Shown here in pieces: positions 1,142-58,320 of a stretch of DNA of 64,000 nucleotides (position 1 is the stretch's first letter; each line of letters begins with the position of its first letter). The notes beneath the pieces were generated by a model, which was given only the letters and a program-made list of their open reading frames with translations, had not been told where the DNA came from and searched no databases. A program made the translations under genes and the position numbers. The stretch lies in the NCBI RefSeq assembly GCF_006345805.1, contig NC_043010.1, positions 12,400,001-12,464,000 of the forward strand. The letters are read 5' to 3'. The stretch is from Octopus sinensis. Taxonomy: Eukaryota.

Positions 1142-1359
1142 TAAATTCAGAAACAAAGTATAGGTCAATCAACAAATTCCTAGACGCAAAATTTTAAACA
1201 TATCTTTAAAAATATACATTTATTAATACATTTTAATAAAGATCAATAGATCTATTGATCTGTATTAAAATGTATTAATAAATGTATATTTTTAAAGATA
1301 TGTTTAAAATTTTGCGTCTAGGAATTTGTTGATTGACTTACACTTAGTTTCTAAATTTA
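1142..1359. repeat. Spacer-less ~109-bp-arm palindrome
   Basis: Centre gatcaataga|tctattgatc at 1250/1251; arms reverse-complementary with few mismatches. Confidence 0.92.
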
Positions 1360-1449
1360 CCTCTTCTCTTGTATGTATGTATGTATGTATGTATGTATGT
1401 ATGTATGTATGTATGTATGTATGCATGCATGCATATATGCATTAACAAC

Positions 1450-1625
1450 TTTATGGTGTCACGAGAAAAGCACCCCATATACACTGTAAAGTGGTTGACG
1501 TTAGGAAGGGCATCAAGTCATAGTAAATAAACCAAATAGACACTGGAGCAGGATGCAATTCTTGGGCCCATTGGACTCTGTCCAATTCATGCCAGCATAG
1601 AACATGGACTTTAAATGATGATGAT
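1450..1625 (+). mobile_element. RTE-3'-end-related short repeat (SINE-like or truncated LINE tail)
   Basis: aaagcaccc...gtggttgacgttaggaagggcatc...catgccagcatag...aaatgatgatga matches the 3' end of the RTE LINE at 4733-4930 (reverse complement). Confidence 0.7.
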
Positions 1626-1671
1626 AAGGAGGAGTGTGTATACATATATATATATGTGTGTGTGTGTGTTT

Positions 1672-1980
1672 GTGGAGGCGCAATGGCCCAGTGGTGAAGG
1701 CAGCGGACACACGGCCATAGGATCGCAGTTTCGATTCCCAGACCGGGCATTGTGAGTGTTTATTGAGCAAAAACACCTAAAGCTCCACAAGGCTCCGCCG
1801 GTGGGGTGGGGGAGCGATCCCTGCTGTACTCTTTCACCACAACTTTCTCTCACTCTTTCTTCTGTCGGCCTGCTTGCTTAGCCAGTGGGGTGGCATCAAT
1901 TGAAGGCTAAAAAAACAATACAAAGTGCATTGTGACCAGCGATGTGTAGCAACATCTGATTGCCTGGTTGGTCACGGTGA
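1672..1980 (+). mobile_element. tRNA-like SINE, family C
   Basis: 5' head ggaggcgcaatggcccagtggt...gtttcgattccc (A/B-box-like); related heads at 58738 and, reversed, at ~14626. Confidence 0.75.
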
Positions 1981-2489
1981 TATATATATAAATATATATA
2001 TATATATATATATAATATATATATATATAAAATATATATATATATATATATTATAAAAATATATATATATATATATAAATATATATATAAATATATATAT
2101 ATATATATATATATATATATATATATATATATATGAGAGAGAAAAAAGGGGGAGAGAGAGTGAGAAGCTTTTGTGTGCAAACAAAAAAATACAAAGTAGT
2201 CAGTATAGGGTGTAATTTTTTTCATTTATTAGAGGGCAGTTGATGACTCAGTCCATTCCAACTCAGGCCATCAGGTCATGTTCAATCAAACAACATTGAG
2301 ACTGAGAAAGCATCAATAGTTTATGCTGTTTTGTTATCAGCGTGTATTTCATGTATATGCATTCATGCATGTGTGTGTATGTATACGCACATGTGTATGT
2401 GTACATATGTACATAAGAATGCTCATCCTTTTTATTTCCTCTGAAGATCAAAAACTCTTTACAAATATTCCTCTACATGTAGCATCATG

Positions 2490-2677
2490 TATAGTGTCTT
2501 TCCCTCACTGACTTACTAGACGCACACACTCACTCATACTCTGTATCTGCATACTATCACTTCTACCACTTGGACCACTATTCTGACCCCCTGAAATAAC
2601 GAACCGTGTAGTAGAGATGTTCTGTCTGCCCTTCTTTTCATCCCTACTACGTTTTATTTTCCCAAATCTTATGATTC
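2490..2677. repeat. Dispersed ~190-bp repeat, copy 1
   Basis: tatagtgtctttccctcactga...tccctac...aaatcttatgattc is similar to 4293-4480. Confidence 0.75.
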
Positions 2678-2756
2678 CACCACATGTAGCCTGTTCTTAA
2701 TACTGGACATTTTGCCATAAACCATTTTAGAAACAACATTATCTAAAAGTGGTTTT

Positions 2757-3186
2757 GGATCTTTTCGGTTTGAACAGCAGTTTTTTAACATAATTTCTAG
2801 GTAACTAAACACTTTTAAACTTCGTATACTGGTAGAATGTGATTATAAAACATCTTTTTCTCTTGGCTTTATTGAGAACATTCTATAGTTTGTAAGATAT
2901 TTGTTGTTTTTTTTTTCTTCAAATTCTGCAATTTCAACCAATCAATGACGTCTATTGAGGTAAAAAAAAAACATTCTGTGCCATATGAATATGTCCCTCG
3001 TTTAAGAAACAGATTGGGTTTATTTACATTTGTGAAGAAAAAAAGATACCCTTCCCCCCACCCCTAACCCTAACCCTAACCCTAAAACAGATTGAAATGC
3101 AATAGATTGATACTAGGGTCGTAATTATGGGTGACAATTTCATATGACACCGCTAGAAAAAACTGCCGTTCAAACCGAAAAGATCC
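2757..3186. mobile_element. MITE with ~30-bp TIRs and 8-bp TSD (Merlin- or hAT-like) containing a (CCCTAA)n tract
   Basis: TIR ggatcttttcggtttgaacagcagtttttt / aaaaaactgccgttcaaaccgaaaagatcc; TSD GTGGTTTT at 2749-2756 and 3187-3194; CCCTAA x4 at ~3062-3085. Confidence 0.9.
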
Positions 3187-55657: not shown

Positions 55658-56097
55658 TTGACCCCGAAAGGATGAAAGGCAGAGTCAACCTCAGCAGTAT
55701 TTGAACTCGGAACGTAGCGGCAGACGAAATACCGATAAGCATTTCTCCCAGTGTGCTAATGATTCTGCCAGCTCACCGCCTTATATATATATATATTAAG
55801 AGTAATAATAATAATAGTAATTATATATATGAGTATGTGTTTATGAGTGTGTGTATACAGGTATATACAGGTATATACAGGTATATCGATGAACACCAGA
55901 TGTGATTCAGAAGTGTACTACTATCACCACTAAACAGATTAGCTGTCTTGTTAGTTGAAGGAAATCAATAATATATATATATTTTTAAAGAACTTTTTAA
56001 AGAACTTTCAGCAGGTTTTCTTCTGGTTCATGACTGATGCATTATAATCTGTTGTTCAGAAAGCCATGAATGATTAATGAAAATCTCTAAGACTCAC

Positions 56098-56248
56098 CAG
56101 GAATTTCTTCATAAGGACTCATATCCTTTTTATTCTGACTGCTATTTTGCAGTTTATGAGGAGATACATTGCTGCCATAGTGATCAGGAGTTGCAATGAA
56201 CCTTCTTTCGTGTCTTCCAGATGTCATTCCAACTTCTTGAATACAAGC
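56098..56248 (-). CDS. Candidate host coding exon (151 bp), product unknown
   Basis: Acceptor tcttcttag|G, donor CTG|gtgagt, open frame ACIQEVGMTSGRHERRFIATPDHYGSNVSPHKLQNSSQNKKDMSPYEEIP in non-repetitive sequence. Confidence 0.35.
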
Positions 56249-57180
56249 CTAAGAAGACAGATATCAAACATGTAGCTTTTTTACAATTGAAATATATTCA
56301 TAAATAGCTAAGGTATGTATTTGTATTCTTAGGTGTGCTTGGTGCACATCACACACCCACAAATGTCATGAAATGATTGATGATTTAATAAATTTGTTGT
56401 AAGTAAATTGCATATTTGCAATTTATTACAACTTTTGCATAATGTTTAGAAAGATGCTATTCATAATCCATGAATAGATGCTAATATTTATTGAAATCTC
56501 CTGCATTATAATATAATATAATATAATATAATATAATATATAATTTGCTGTCATTACCAGAAGTACCATAGTTTCGTGGTAAACTCTCACAGTGTGCTTA
56601 ATTTCCATTGTGAGATCAATTCCTGGTTGAGCCACTCCCCTTCAAGTACTCTGCAATTTCTTACGGTGATCAATAGCTTGGAAATGTTAAAACATGATAT
56701 GATGTTTTTATAAATACATTTGAGAATACCACTCATCACACCCAGTTTATTTCCCAAGGTACTATATCTACAGAATATTAATTATAATCATGGAAATTAG
56801 GAGCTCACAGCCAGGCATGCTTTTTCTAAGATTATTGGTAAAGTGAATGAAATAGCAATGACTTTTACCACCACCACAACTCTGGAAGCAGCACTTGAAT
56901 TACTTGAATGGCAAATTGCTAGTTTATCACTTAAGTTAAATACCCTTATCACCTAATATTTTTGTATAATAGTGACCTTAAATTTTGACTTAGAACAATG
57001 ATAGAAACTTCTTATATTTGAAGGGTGCATTGGTTTAAATGTAATCTAATATGGTTCATTAAAAGTTTAATCAAATATATAGAAAAAAATACAAAAAAAC
57101 ACATACAATAGGAATACAAAATACAAAATGGCTGACCGTTAGTAAGGAGAGACACACAAATAAGAAAGAAGAAAGCAAAG

Positions 57181-57224
57181 GACCACTGATGAGGTCACGG
57201 GAGTGTGACGAAAGAACTCTGGCC
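57181..57224 (+). ncRNA. Minimal type I hammerhead ribozyme motif with intact core
   Basis: GACCA-CTGATGA-g-GTCAC gggagt GTGAC-GAAA-GaaC-TC-TGGCC; predicted cleavage after C57219. Confidence 0.65.
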
Positions 57225-57572
57225 GAAATAAGATTAAGATTAATGTAAAAAATGAATAACGCTGAAGCAAAGTAACACCATATATATAGTGCGTGTGTTT
57301 TTATTGGCTAAACTGGCAAAATGACCATTCCTAAATAAAACACAAAAATATATTTGTTGTGAAAATGTATTTACAAATACTTTTAAAGTAAGACACAAAA
57401 AATGTAAACCAATAGGCTTATACACACACATACACACTCATAATGAATAATATAATACAAAAATATTTTTACTATAGACACAGGGCCTGAAATAAATATA
57501 CTACAATAAAGGTAAAGACCCTTTTTAGAATAAAGTTGTGGAAGGTAACTTCTACCATTCCTTCCACAACTT

Positions 57573-57966
57573 TATTCTTTTATTTGTTTTAGTCATTTGA
57601 CTGTGGCCATGCTGGAGCATCACCTTTAGTTGAACAAATCAACCCCAGGACTTATTCTTTGTAAGCCTAGTACTTATTTTATCGGTATATTTTGCCAAAC
57701 TGCTAAGTTATGGGGACATAAACACACTAGCATCGATTGTCAAGTGATATTGGGGGACAAACACAGATACACAAACATATACATATGTATGTGTGTGTAT
57801 ATATGACGGGCTTCTTTCAGTTTCCGTCTACCAAATCCACTCACAGGCTTTGGTCGGCCTGAGGTTATAGTAGAAGACACTTGCCTGAAGTGCCACGCAG
57901 TAGGACTGAACCCGGAACAATGTGGTTGGTAAGCAAGCTACTTACCACACACAGCCACTCCTGCAC
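57573..57966 (-). mobile_element. SINE family A
   Basis: Complete head to tail. Confidence 0.88.
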
Positions 57967-58109
57967 CAGGACCTGTAAGAGGTCCTGAAAAGAGTAATGG
58001 GTGCACCATTCCTCCTCTGACTAAACCATAAGAAAACAAGTAAAAAGATCAAAAAGAAATCACATCCTTCTTAACTCTATATCAATTGTATGTATTTAGA
58101 GTATATTAA

Positions 58110-58320
58110 CTGTTGTGTCTGGGGAGAGTTATTTTCTCTTTTTCTTTTTGTGCCTTATAATATAACACACTCACCGGTAAAATCTCCACTTTTTAATTTT
58201 TTAAAATTAAAAATTTTTTTTAATTTTTTAATTTTATATTATATTTTTATTTTATATTTTATTTTTATGTTATAAGGCACAAAAAGAAAAAGGGAAAATG
58301 ACTCTCCCCAGACACAACAG
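58110..58320. repeat. Foldback with ~50-bp arms and AT-rich spacer
   Basis: ctgttgtgtctggggagag...ttgtgccttataa pairs with ttataaggcacaa...ctctccccagacacaacag. Confidence 0.85.

What the first reader, a model, noticed from the sequence alone, without database searches (positions are those of the whole stretch)
1142..58320. Recurring class of sequence-unrelated foldbacks and minimal hammerheads: possible Penelope-derived hairpin/retrozyme system
Seen: at least 8 palindromes/foldbacks with dissimilar sequences (1142, 15233, 16665, 19669, 29269, 48259, 50482, 58110), mostly in TA/AT-rich sites and without obvious TSDs. Hammerhead-like cores occur at ~15865-15900, 16303, 29372, 44790, 48340, 50869 and 57181. 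The four clearest (16303, 44790, 50869, 57181) share an extra purine after CTGANGA, and most have a tiny near-palindromic stem III. One foldback still holds a Penelope-type GIY-YIG remnant. Known: an extra nucleotide after A9 is tolerated in some natural hammerheads. Inference: many independent PLE lineages leave ribozyme-bearing hairpins, a potentially large source of dsRNA and self-cleaving RNA in this genome.
Basis: partly seen in the sequence, partly recalled or inferred. Interest (0 to 1): 0.72.

Follow-up and report, generated by a model that had tools for sequence, protein, structure and literature searches.

The report
Penelope retroelement hairpins with hammerhead motifs
Most of these DNA hairpins are back-to-back double copies of short Penelope-type jumping genes, likely made when the element's enzyme copies its RNA onto both cut DNA strands; two carry hammerhead-ribozyme motifs whose cutting is untested, so the finding is largely real but of a known kind.

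Summary
Seven of the eight foldbacks are real; 29400-29625 is only 70% self-complementary. All eight sites lie in or beside repeat families of the host genome (32 to over 2,400 first-look candidates). Their anatomy is that of Penelope-like element (PLE) insertions, not MITEs. Two copies sit head-to-head with 3' ends outward. A 36-67 nt "tail" occurs on one side only. Targets are (TA)n or other microsatellites, or 13-14 bp target duplications are present. The genome holds two families with open RT + GIY-YIG reading frames (717 and 727 aa) showing the same layout. Window family 29262-29400 is 80.6% identical to the pLTR of the 727-aa element, and 16666-17577 is an old GIY-YIG-bearing PLE 3' fragment.

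Hammerheads: no Rfam hit in the window. Of seven claimed sites, 50873 is supported by a model built from this genome's own canonical hammerheads (25.6 bits, E 6e-5). Site 57186 fits the published PLE "min-HHR" features; 1 of 400 shuffles gave any such hit. 48340 is weak and 29372 is a decayed pLTR motif. 16303, 44790 and 15865-15900 lack the catalytic core.

No tandem (retrozyme) arrangement is present, and I found no footprint of cleavage. Other windows of this genome gave the same reading earlier. This is a known kind with new members.

The parts
1136..1365 (.). 230-bp palindrome made of two inverted copies of a ~125-nt repeat unit (old, low-copy family), next to a (TGTA)n run
   Evidence: (I11); 32 first-look candidates at 68-88% identity; most other loci hold a single arm and one other locus holds the hairpin form.
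15237..16044 (.). Head-to-head dimer of a high-copy ~300-nt non-coding retroelement. The inverted copy is 15237-15297 + 15629-~15806 (- sense), split by a 331-bp insertion at 15298-15628. The forward copy is 15825-16044 (+), with a ~36-nt tail at 16009-16044 lying between two CTTCTAA(TA) sites. It is inserted in a (GT)n/(TA)n microsatellite.
   Evidence: (>=1901 candidates, 91-97% identity). Eight of eight other loci are single units running (CA)n...CTTCTAA(TA)n. No CTGANGA box is present.
16666..17577 (+). Old 5'-truncated PLE 3' part: linker + GIY-YIG coding remnant (16761-16970, with in-frame stops around it) + 3' UTR. It is preceded by a 40-nt inverted copy of its own 3' end (16665-16705) and sits inside an (ATGT)n microsatellite.
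   Evidence: 139 candidates, 67-86%; 3' ends anchored at 906-912; inverted partners at several loci; tblastn to P0001 E 3e-10; P0001 carries YRDDGL, CNCRRNKVC and a weak Pfam GIY-YIG hit at E 0.004. Pfam on the window remnant itself gave no hit.
19668..19751 (.). 84-nt hairpin forming the end of a high-copy repeat that starts at or before 19630, abutting (TA)n
   Evidence: >=1724 candidates, 82-98% identity.
29262..29401 (-). pLTR fragment of the 727-aa PLE family. Its 3' end (...CTTACTCTGGT) abuts the (TA)n at 29212-29261. A decayed hammerhead-like box lies at 29362-29401 (TCGATAA...GAAAC).
   Evidence: >=2476 candidates; 80.6% identity over 138 nt to the pLTRs of L069-L071, E 8e-26.
48259..48430 (.). 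142-bp palindrome plus a one-sided extension (48401 to at least 48430) of an old high-copy family. A degenerate hammerhead-like motif lies at 48334-48379.
   Evidence: >=1067 candidates, 78-89%; CTGANGA kept in 5 of 7 copies, GAAAC in 7 of 7, helix II poorly kept; 10.8 bits, E 1.6.
50415..50986 (-). The '505 family'. A 67-nt tail (50415-50481) is followed by a 505-bp palindrome (50482-50986). The sense strand is the - strand, with the tail at the 3' end. It is inserted in (TA)n.
   Evidence: >=1605 candidates, 89-97%; 20 of 20 copies carry the tail on one side only; every copy has at least one TA-rich flank.
50867..50948 (+). Hammerhead motif of the inverted arm. Layout: GCGG / CUGAAGA / A / helix II GGCC...GGCC(C) with a 40-nt insertion / GAAA / ACAUAUGU / A. 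The predicted cut is between 50942 and 50943. Its mirror at 50520-50601 (-) carries a helix I mutation.
   Evidence: R1: 25.6 bits, E 5.9e-5; mirror 20.3 bits, E 0.0022. (the MFE of the isolated motif has the three-helix layout, z +0.77). (motif intact in 36 of 40 arms of L001-L020). Not found by Rfam.
57099..57342 (+). Solo, 5'-truncated, tail-less copy of a young high-copy family that usually lands as head-to-head pairs
   Evidence: >=1812 candidates, 97-99%; 8 of 10 loci have a head-to-head partner with a different junction each; in 8 of 8 pairs only one copy bears the ~55-nt tail; 14-bp TSD in L025.
57180..57225 (+). PLE-type minimal hammerhead. CUGAUGA is at 57186-57192 and the extra G at 57193. 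Helix II has 6 bp (57194-57199 / 57204-57209, closing pair G10.1-C11.1). GAAA is at 57210-57213 and helix III reads AG-AA-CU. The predicted cut is between 57219 and 57220.
   Evidence: MFE equals the hammerhead layout, z -0.57; top hit of the window with filters off, but 11.6 bits, E 0.89; the only hit of the min-HHR descriptor; 1 of 400 shuffles gave any hit; intact in 7 of 10 loci.
58113..58378 (+). Head-to-head dimer (arms to 58320) plus a 58-nt tail (58321-58378) homologous to the tail of the 57099 family. It is flanked by a 13-bp TSD at 58100-58112 / 58379-58391 and has no hammerhead box.
   Evidence: >=1684 candidates; 3' part and tail against the 57 family: z 11.4, 0 of 300 shuffles.
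16303..16335 (+). Not a hammerhead: CTGTAGA A GAGC GTAG GCTC AAAATGT, near the 5' end of an unrelated high-copy repeat
   Evidence: >=1919 candidates, 94-97% identity.
44790..44822 (+). Not a hammerhead: GTGATGA A GGAC TAAT GTCC AAAATGT (C3 and G12 are both missing)

Best explanation
The foldbacks are insertion footprints of Penelope-like retroelements (PLEs) and their short non-coding passengers, and the hairpin shape is likely made at integration, when both cut target strands would prime reverse transcription.

SHOWN BY THE SEQUENCE AND MY CALLS.
- Each well-formed foldback is two copies of one repeat unit joined head-to-head with 3' ends outward.
- One copy, and only one, carries an extra 36-67 nt tail.
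- Insertions lie in (TA)n or other microsatellites, or are flanked by 13-14 bp duplications.
- Autonomous elements in the same genome, with open 717- and 727-aa RT + GIY-YIG frames, have the same layout.
- One window family is a pLTR fragment of the 727-aa element.

INFERRED MECHANISM.
- The GIY-YIG endonuclease cuts both strands of a TA-rich target, and each 3' end primes cDNA synthesis on the element RNA.
- The two cDNAs meet at their 5' ends, which gives the palindrome.
- Initiation at either of two sites gives the one-sided tail. Here both sites end in a short A/T-rich word (for example CTTCTAA-TATA twice in the 15237 family).
- In the 505 family the palindrome would be rebuilt at every insertion from a template of about 250 nt plus tail.

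THE HAMMERHEADS.
- The motifs at 50873 and 57186 are inherited PLE-type minimal hammerheads.
- They are predicted to be weak, dimer-dependent cutters at best, and they are not needed to make the hairpins.
For: ARCHITECTURE.
- 57099 family: 8 of 10 loci are head-to-head pairs with different junctions, and the tail is on exactly one copy in 8 of 8 pairs.
- 14-bp TSD in L025 and 13-bp TSD at 58100/58379.
- 505 family: one-sided tail in 20 of 20 copies, with TA-rich flanks.
- 15237 family: 8 of 8 other loci are single units, so the window copy is a dimer.
- 1136 family: mostly single arms elsewhere.

AUTONOMOUS ELEMENTS.
- 107 of 107 scored places match the RT-GIY-YIG query at E<=7e-84, out of 26,913 first-look candidates, with frames open up to 766 aa.
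- The 717-aa element has RWK, DKT, YKDD, CSCRNKELC and a GIY-YIG-like block.
- It ends in (TA)n, has an alternative end 63 nt upstream, and has inverted 5'-truncated partners in 4 of 6 loci plus a direct partial copy in one.
- The 727-aa element is pLTR-ORF-pLTR, and window 29262-29400 matches its pLTR (E 8e-26).

REBUILDING OF THE PALINDROME (505 family).
- The centre junction differs between copies.
- Substitutions shared by two or more copies are present in both arms 35 times and in one arm 7 times.
- Eight private substitutions are mirrored in both arms.

HAMMERHEADS.
-, as listed under parts.

LITERATURE (passages read).
- PMC8557442: an inverted 5'-truncated copy, a 30-40 bp tail often at one end, microsatellite and (TA)n bias, and the Hydra-clade motifs.
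[quoted passage not shown] Hammerhead cleavage is not needed in vitro.
- PMC4209133: the min-HHR features.
Against: - No sequence similarity links the 3' ends of the 505, 57099 or 15237 families to the 3' UTR of the 717-aa PLE (z<1, no blastn hit). Their enzyme partner is therefore inferred from architecture alone.
- Pfam finds nothing in the 717-aa frame or in the window's GIY-YIG remnant. The GIY-YIG call rests on motifs, weak Pfam hits in relatives (E 0.004-0.007, below cut-off) and language-model neighbours.
- The six loci of the 717-aa family show no hammerhead core, although the Hydra clade is reported always to have one.
- Mirrored substitutions could also come from arm-to-arm gene conversion, and variable centres from the known instability of long palindromes.
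- No Rfam hit. 57186 scores only 11.6 bits (E 0.89) with the genome's own canonical model. My relaxed descriptor was written after seeing the sites.
- Isolated motifs do not fold better than shuffles.
- No excess of copies starting at the predicted cut site.
- 29400-29625 remains unexplained.
Confidence: 0.8

Rival explanations
1. The foldbacks are MITEs or foldback DNA transposons, moved by cut-and-paste, with TA target duplications hidden in the TA repeats.
For: They are palindromic and short, occur at high copy number and have TA flanks. The 16666 element looks as if it has 40-nt TIRs.
Against: - A unique 67-nt tail lies outside the palindrome on one side only in 20 of 20 copies of the 505 family.
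- Single-arm copies are the rule in the 15237 and 1136 families.
- Junction points differ between loci of the 57099 family.
- TSDs of 13-14 bp enclose arm + arm + tail, not the palindrome.
- The 16666 'TIR' is an inverted piece of the element's own 3' end, and its copies are 3'-anchored and 5'-truncated.
- One family is a PLE pLTR.
Confidence: 0.04
2. They are SINE-like passengers of LINEs, with the inversions made by twin priming or by later rearrangement. One endonuclease + RT LINE lies in the window.
For: Variable 13-14 bp TSDs, 5' truncation and microsatellite-like 3' ends also occur in LINE/SINE pairs. A LINE with an AP-type endonuclease match below Pfam's cut-off (24.7 bits vs 27.4) plus RT and PHD matches lies at 6016-8291 (-).
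Against: - Twin priming inverts a different part of one RNA. Here both arms carry the same 3' end.
- The one-sided tail is described as unique to PLEs (PMC11167929, abstract and passages).
- The genome's own RT-GIY-YIG elements show the identical layout and the same (TA)n target.
Confidence: 0.08
3. This is a retrozyme system. The hammerheads cut multimeric transcripts, the monomers circularise, and the circles are the transposition intermediates. On this reading the hairpins matter as ribozyme carriers.
For: - Type I hammerhead motifs sit in non-autonomous PLE-linked repeats.
- One canonical-hammerhead repeat elsewhere in the genome is a 431-nt tandem pair.
- Retrozymes are held to derive from PLE pLTRs (bioRxiv 10.64898/2026.07.22.740005, abstract only).
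Against: - The window has no tandem direct repeat with a hammerhead. It has only an inverted pair and a solo copy.
- Four of the foldback families have no hammerhead at all.
- Copies are not permuted around the cut site. There are 0 head-to-head junctions at the cut site.
- (TA)n-to-cut-site starts occur at 3 loci, against 0, 2 and 1 at control sites.
Confidence: 0.08

Closest known systems
Insertions of endonuclease-bearing Penelope-like elements with an inverted 5'-truncated copy and a one-sided tail (Craig et al. 2021, PMC8557442; Frangieh et al. 2024, PMC11167929)
   Same: Head-to-head inverted copies with 3' ends outward, a tail on one side, microsatellite/(TA)n targets, variable TSDs, an RT + C-terminal GIY-YIG frame and pLTRs.
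   Different: Most window elements are non-coding units of 0.25-0.6 kb with thousands of first-look candidates. Tails are 36-67 nt, not 30-40. In one family nearly every copy is a full-length perfect dimer, so it passes for a 505-bp palindromic repeat.
Hydra clade of PLEs (Craig et al. 2021, section 'Hydra', read in full)
   Same: [quoted passage not shown] The element is about 2.6 kb and inserts into (TA)n.
   Different: No canonical hammerhead was found in six loci. The 727-aa relative lacks the middle Cys of the linker. No phylogeny was made, so clade membership rests on motifs.
Minimal type I hammerheads of metazoan PLEs (Cervera and de la Pena 2014, PMC4209133)
   Same: [quoted passage not shown]
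   Different: 50873 carries a 40-nt insertion in helix II and needs either a bulged C or an A-C mismatch at the closing pair. Related long-helix-II motifs occur at L022 and L041. Activity is untested; the paper reports low activity even for its own motifs.
Metazoan non-LTR retrozymes (Cervera and de la Pena 2020, PMC7229834; Li et al. 2026 preprint, abstract)
   Same: Non-autonomous, AT-rich repeats of a few hundred bases carrying type I hammerheads and tied to PLEs.
   Different: Retrozymes are tandem direct repeats expressed as circles. Here the arrangement is inverted or solo, and most foldback families have no ribozyme.
MITEs / foldback DNA transposons
   Same: They look like short high-copy palindromes in TA-rich DNA.
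   Different: The ends are asymmetric (tail), single-arm copies exist, junctions vary, and TSDs enclose the tail. See the rival explanation.

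Membership tests
PLE insertion architecture | An inverted 5'-truncated copy adjoining the main copy head-to-head | tested here: met
   57099 family in 8 of 10 loci. Window 15237-16044, 50482-50986, 58113-58320 and 16665-16705 with 16666-17577. 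The 717-aa PLE in 4 of 6 loci.
PLE insertion architecture | [quoted passage not shown] | tested here: met
   Tail on one side in 20 of 20 copies of the 505 family and on one copy in 8 of 8 pairs of the 57099 family. Window tails: 16009-16044, 50415-50481, 58321-58378. The 717-aa PLE has alternative ends 63 nt apart. The start sites themselves are not testable here.
PLE insertion architecture | An RT plus GIY-YIG endonuclease frame in the element, or sequence homology to such an element | tested here: inconclusive
   Met for 16666-17577 and 29262-29400. Not met for the 505, 57099/58113, 15237, 48259, 19668 and 1136 families: no frame, and no similarity to the 717-aa PLE 3' UTR.
Hydra clade of PLEs | RWK motif, DKT instead of DKG, a CxCX5C linker, a C-terminal GIY-YIG, length under 3 kb, (TA)n target | tested here: met
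   L068 frame: RWK at 46, DKT at 123, CSCRNKELC at 566 (positions). The element spans about 500-3047/3110 and ends in (TA)n.
Hydra clade of PLEs | A canonical hammerhead in the element; placement in the clade by phylogeny | tested here: not met
   No CTGANGA...GAAA core and no descriptor hit in 6 of 6 loci of the 717-aa family. The 727-aa family has a pLTR motif scoring only 10.3 bits. No phylogeny was made.
Hammerhead ribozyme, type I (Rfam RF00163) | Score at or above Rfam's gathering threshold | tested here: not met
   No hit in the window at gathering or at E<=10 around both best sites. The genome does hold 7 passing hits among 74 scored candidates.
Hammerhead ribozyme, type I | Conserved core CUGANGA / GAAA / UH with helices I, II and III in type I order | tested here: met
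   Met at 50873 (and its mirror) and at 57186. Not met at 16303, 44790, 15865-15900 or 29408(+). 48340 has the core only.
Hammerhead ribozyme, type I | Self-cleavage at the predicted site | not testable with these tools
   Only assembled contigs of public runs were on offer. The genomic footprint test gave no excess.
PLE min-HHR (PMC4209133) | [quoted passage not shown] | tested here: met
   57186: G57193, G57194-C57209, 6 bp, AG-AA-CU. It is the only hit, and 1 of 400 shuffles gave any. 50873: A50880, and ACAUAUGU is palindromic, but helix II needs a bulged C.
Metazoan non-LTR retrozyme | Tandem direct repeats of 150-450 bp, each with a type I hammerhead | tested here: not met
   The only model hits with E<1 are an inverted pair inside one palindrome. 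57186 is a solo copy.
MITE / foldback DNA transposon | Symmetric terminal inverted repeats bounded on both sides by a fixed-length TSD | tested here: not met
   One-sided tail outside the palindrome. The tail-less end varies by a few bases. TSDs of 13-14 bp enclose the tail.

The most novel reading that the evidence does not exclude
The 505-bp 'palindromic repeat' is not a replicating hairpin at all. A template of about 250 nt plus tail is turned into a perfect head-to-head dimer at essentially every insertion, which gives a genome-scale natural record of dual-strand target-primed reverse transcription by a Hydra-type PLE. Each of its hundreds of copies is then a ready-made long-hairpin (dsRNA) gene with a masked hammerhead bearing a 40-nt helix II insertion in each arm. 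That could feed small-RNA pathways or be unmasked only in single-arm transcripts.
Probability: 0.2. Interest if true: 0.55.

Novelty: new member of a known kind. Interest (0 to 1): 0.3.

Why it matters
It shows that repeats which automated pipelines would file as MITEs or 'unknown palindromes' in this large AT-rich animal genome are Penelope-type retroelement footprints. It also shows that the genome holds two abundant RT-GIY-YIG families with open frames and a (TA)n target.

The families give many natural examples of the two-strand priming and two-start-site 'tail' seen so far in vitro for one lizard element (PMC11167929).

The hammerhead variants are candidates for testing how much a minimal hammerhead tolerates. 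They include the extra base after A9, the 40-nt helix II insertion and the 3-bp helix II of the 727-aa element's pLTR.

None of this changes the known picture of PLEs.

Tried and rejected
- RNA evidence: no RNA holder listed. All 20 runs offered are assembled contigs, so no reads were laid.
- Rfam at E<=10 over the whole window is swamped by microRNA models matching TA/TG microsatellites and hairpins. This was rejected as noise.
- Pfam gave nothing for the window's GIY-YIG remnant, the frames around canonical hammerhead loci, or the 717-aa frame.
- The search for homologous proteins (longer proteins) returned only two unnamed fragments.
- Looking for a full PLE beside the canonical hammerheads at L043 gave only a 49-aa GIY-YIG-like match.
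- blastn and Smith-Waterman with shuffles found no link between the 505, 57099 or 15237 families and the 717-aa PLE 3' UTR. The link between the 505 family and the canonical-hammerhead family is only weak (z 2.4, 7 of 300 shuffles).
- Cut-site footprint: 0 head-to-head junctions at the cut site. (TA)n-to-cut-site starts occur at 3 loci, two of them 1 kb apart, against 0, 2 and 1 loci at three control positions. There is no enrichment.
- My first reading of the 15237 family as having a fixed 55-nt 5' hairpin was an artefact of where my query began. It was corrected.
- ARAGORN finds no tRNA in 15280-15650, so my guess of a tRNA-derived SINE there is unsupported.
- Look-ups of earlier notes by sequence gave nothing.
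- Within-copy against between-copy arm identity (0.888 vs 0.878) was distorted by my arm slicing and is not used.
- Supplementary files of PMC8557442 (family lists and hammerheads of Hydra elements) were not opened. They may already list families of this genome's group.

Full report
SETTING. The window is G000:C14:12400001-12464000 of a 2.7-Gb genome. It is AT-rich (27-47% G+C in 4-kb bins) and full of microsatellites and interspersed repeats.

FOLDBACKS: ARE THEY THERE? Self-alignment and repeat finding and reading the sequence confirm six clear palindromes:
- 1136-1365;
- 15236-16010, split by a 331-bp insertion;
- 19668-19751;
- 48259-48400;
- 50482-50986;
- 58110-58320.

The 16665 item is a 912-bp element with about 40-nt terminal inverted repeats. 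The 29269 item is a weak 70% palindrome (29400-29625) lying next to a real repeat unit (29262-29400).

FOLDBACKS: WHAT ARE THEY? Every item lies in or beside a repeat family of the host genome. First-look candidate counts are 32, >=1901 (57), 139 (47), >=1724 (90), >=2476 (61), >=1067 (60), >=1605 (5) and >=1684 (58). These are lower bounds, not copy numbers. The anatomy is the same throughout.

(i) 57099 family (97-99% identity).
- I fetched 10 loci. Eight hold two copies head-to-head with 3' ends outward, and the junction point differs in each.
- In all eight pairs exactly one copy continues past the common 3' end into a tail of about 55 nt.
- In L025 the whole unit (inverted copy, forward copy, tail) is flanked by a 14-bp duplication.
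- The window copy (57099-57342) is solo and tail-less.

(ii) 58110 foldback.
- It has a homologous 3' part and tail (z 11.4 against shuffles).
- It is flanked by a 13-bp duplication once the tail is included.

(iii) 505 family.
- It carries a unique 67-nt tail outside the palindrome on one side only, in 20 of 20 copies.
- The tail end is precise and the other end varies by a few bases.
- Every copy has at least one strongly TA-repeat flank; 15 of 20 have one on the 3' side and 15 of 20 on the 5' side.

(iv) 15237 family.
- In 8 of 8 other loci it is a single unit running from (CA)n to ...CTTCTAA(TA)n.
- The window copy is a head-to-head dimer.
- Its inverted copy stops at an internal CTTCTAA-TATA site, about 36 nt before the true end, which has the same word.

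(v) The 1136 unit is mostly single-armed elsewhere.

(vi) The 48259 family is a palindrome with a one-sided extension.

This asymmetry excludes ordinary terminal-inverted-repeat transposons.

LINK TO PENELOPE-LIKE ELEMENTS.
- The 16666-17577 element translates, with stops, to ...PLKGSCLTTNVIYKC..RVYISSTVNFKARYWAH....
- Better-kept relatives read GKSCNCRNPRLCPLDGLC..NVIY..YIGST..FK.RY.
- They match two unnamed protein fragments. One of these, P0001, runs from an RT block (FGLYRDDGL) through CNCRRNKVC to a GIY-YIG-like block (Pfam GIY-YIG E 0.004, below cut-off).
- tblastn of P0001 hits the window element at E 3e-10. In relatives it also hits the RT part upstream and collinear.
- With P0001 as query the genome gives 107 of 107 scored places at E<=7e-84, out of 26,913 first-look candidates, with frames open up to 766 aa.

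The 717-aa family.
- The elements span about 2.6 kb and their common 3' end abuts (TA)n; three of the six loci show that junction.
- It has an alternative end 63 nt upstream.
- Inverted 5'-truncated partners occur in 4 of 6 loci and a direct partial copy in one.
[quoted passage not shown] These are the motifs that Craig et al. list for their Hydra clade, along with (TA)n insertion and a size under 3 kb (PMC8557442, section 11, read in full).
- Pfam does not recognise the frame. Language-model neighbours are about 700-aa animal proteins carrying GIY-YIG, RVT_1 or HTH_animal in part of their members. I treat that as a lead only.

The 727-aa family.
- It is 43% identical to the 717-aa frame.
- It is a textbook pLTR-ORF-pLTR element ending ...TTTACTCCGGTC(TA)n.
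- Window 29262-29400 (- strand) is 80.6% identical over 138 nt to its pLTR (E 8e-26).

No sequence link was found between the other non-coding families and the 717-aa element's 3' UTR. Their partner is inferred from architecture.

MECHANISM.
- Craig et al. describe PLE insertions with an inverted 5'-truncated copy and a 30-40 bp tail often present at one end only (passages).
- Frangieh et al. show that a purified PLE protein cleaves and extends both target strands. [quoted passage not shown]
- Two cDNAs primed from the two strands would meet head-to-head with 3' ends outward, which is exactly what is seen. This step is inferred here, not shown.

The 505 family adds a test of its own.
- The palindrome centre differs from copy to copy by 0-20 nt.
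- In 19 copies and 206 columns, substitutions shared by two or more copies are present in both arms 35 times and in one arm 7 times.
- Eight substitutions private to one copy are mirrored in both arms, against 22 found in one arm.
- This fits rebuilding of the dimer from a one-arm template at each insertion.
- Arm-to-arm conversion and centre deletions of palindromes are alternatives I cannot exclude.

HAMMERHEADS.
The CTGANGA box is not enriched: 31 observed, against 26 +/- 5 in shuffles. Rfam finds no hammerhead in the window. The genome does hold canonical type I hammerheads: 7 pass Rfam's cut-off among 74 scored candidates. All have the tiny helix III (AC-AUGU-GU) typical of animals.

Descriptors.
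- My strict descriptor finds 5 of those 7 at the Rfam position and nothing in the window (shuffle mean 0.013).
- A relaxed descriptor, written after seeing the sites, finds 48340, 50873 and 57186. Shuffles average 0.24 hits, and 1 of 300 reaches three.

Covariance model.
- I built a model from the seven canonical motifs, independent of the window.
- With default filters it gives 50867-50948 (+) 25.6 bits, E 5.9e-5, and the mirror 50520-50601 (-) 20.3 bits, E 0.0022. Nothing else in the window falls below E 1.
- With filters off the long hit is lost. Then 57180-57225 ranks first at 11.6 bits (E 0.89) and 48334-48379 fourth at 10.8 bits.
- E-values of this model are rough.

Site 57186.
- A descriptor made of the first three plus the core finds only 57186 in the window. 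One of 400 shuffles gives any hit.

Site 50873.
- It has the same extra base and a palindromic ACAUAUGU helix III.
- It needs a bulged C in helix II and carries a 40-nt insertion there.
- Similar long-helix-II motifs occur at L022 and L041.

The other sites.
- The 727-aa element's pLTR motif (CTGATGA, 3-bp helix II with a GNAA loop, GAAAC, 8-bp helix I) scores only 10.3 bits. The window copy of it has decayed to TCGATAA.
- 48340 keeps the box in 5 of 7 family members and GAAAC in 7 of 7, but not helix II.
- 16303 and 44790 lack conserved core letters (box positions 6 and 3 respectively, and G12 in each). 16303 sits at the 5' end of another high-copy repeat.
- 15865-15900 has no box.

DOES THE RIBOZYME ACT?
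- This is unknown. Isolated motifs fold into the hammerhead layout, but no better than shuffles.
- Inside a 250-bp-stem hairpin the motif would be masked.
- No public raw RNA reads were on offer.
- Genomic footprints of a cleaved template are absent or not enriched.
- Published work reports low activity for PLE min-HHRs (PMC4209133) and no need for cleavage in vitro (PMC11167929).

COMPARISON AND NOVELTY.
- The layout, the tail, the (TA)n target and the minimal hammerheads are all in print.
- The retrozyme label fails its defining tandem arrangement (PMC7229834 passages).
- What is specific here is the set of short non-coding families, one of which is a near-perfect 505-bp dimer in essentially every copy examined, together with the hammerhead variants.
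- My three literature searches listed no paper describing these families. A recent octopus repeat paper mentions Penelope-like elements but neither hammerheads nor palindromes (PMC13282606, term search). I have not established which organism the window comes from.
- Earlier notes of this scan reached the same reading on other DNA of this genome. I formed mine before reading them.

VERDICT. A largely correct observation of an ordinary, already described phenomenon, with several over-called hammerheads.

Noticed in passing
window 6016-8291 (-): A LINE-type retrotransposon. Frames match RVT_1 (E 1e-17) and, below Pfam's cut-offs, Exo_endo_phos_2 (24.7 bits vs 27.4) and a PHD finger (23.7 vs 24). 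It is not a PLE.
   Followed up: partly
window 24197-27984: Nested long inverted repeats (arms of 119-250 nt, 91-98% complementary) in a G+C-richer stretch (45%). Frames there have no Pfam match.
   Followed up: no
window 38669-39931 and 60171-61398: Further inverted repeat pairs: 150-nt arms at 86-89%, and 140-nt microsatellite-rich arms at 73-78%.
   Followed up: no
window 16303-16335 and 44790-44822: Two short hairpins share one layout: ...GA A, a 4-bp stem, a 4-nt loop, AAAATGT. The stem differs by compensating changes (GAGC/GCTC vs GGAC/GTCC). The flanks are not otherwise alignable. 16303 lies 25 nt into a repeat with >=1919 candidates. Neither is a hammerhead, and the meaning is unknown.
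   Followed up: partly
window 15298-15628: A 331-bp G+C-richer insertion splits the left arm of the 15237 foldback. I took it for a tRNA-derived SINE, but ARAGORN finds no tRNA there.
   Followed up: partly
L034:738-780 (-) and L034:1687-1729 (+): A second canonical-looking hammerhead type (CCAC CTGAAGA TTGTC..GACAA GAAAC GATT GTA GTGG) occurs as an inverted pair about 900 nt apart, beside another hammerhead family.
   Followed up: no
L041:5290-5370 (+), L022:3798-3866 (-), L042:3986-4070 (+): Hammerheads with helix II of 50-60 nt; the L041 and L042 motifs pass my strict descriptor, the L022 motif only the relaxed one. Model R1 scores 16.9 bits (L041) and 25.8 bits (L022). Long-helix-II variants seem common in this genome and escape Rfam-style searches.
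   Followed up: partly
L043:7201-8084 (-): A 431-nt tandem duplication (98.5% identity), each unit with a canonical hammerhead (62.7 bits). This is the only retrozyme-like or pLTR-like tandem seen. A 49-aa GIY-YIG-like match lies about 780 nt downstream.
   Followed up: partly
L063-L071 (own genome): Two RT + GIY-YIG families with uninterrupted 717- and 727-aa frames, whose copies are 96-99% identical to each other. They look recently active.
   Followed up: partly
window, many sites (e.g. 11509-12166, 36037-36178, 44556-44624): Rfam matches below threshold to mir-297, mir-3149 and mir-466 models all lie on TG/TA microsatellites or hairpins. They are composition artefacts.
   Followed up: no
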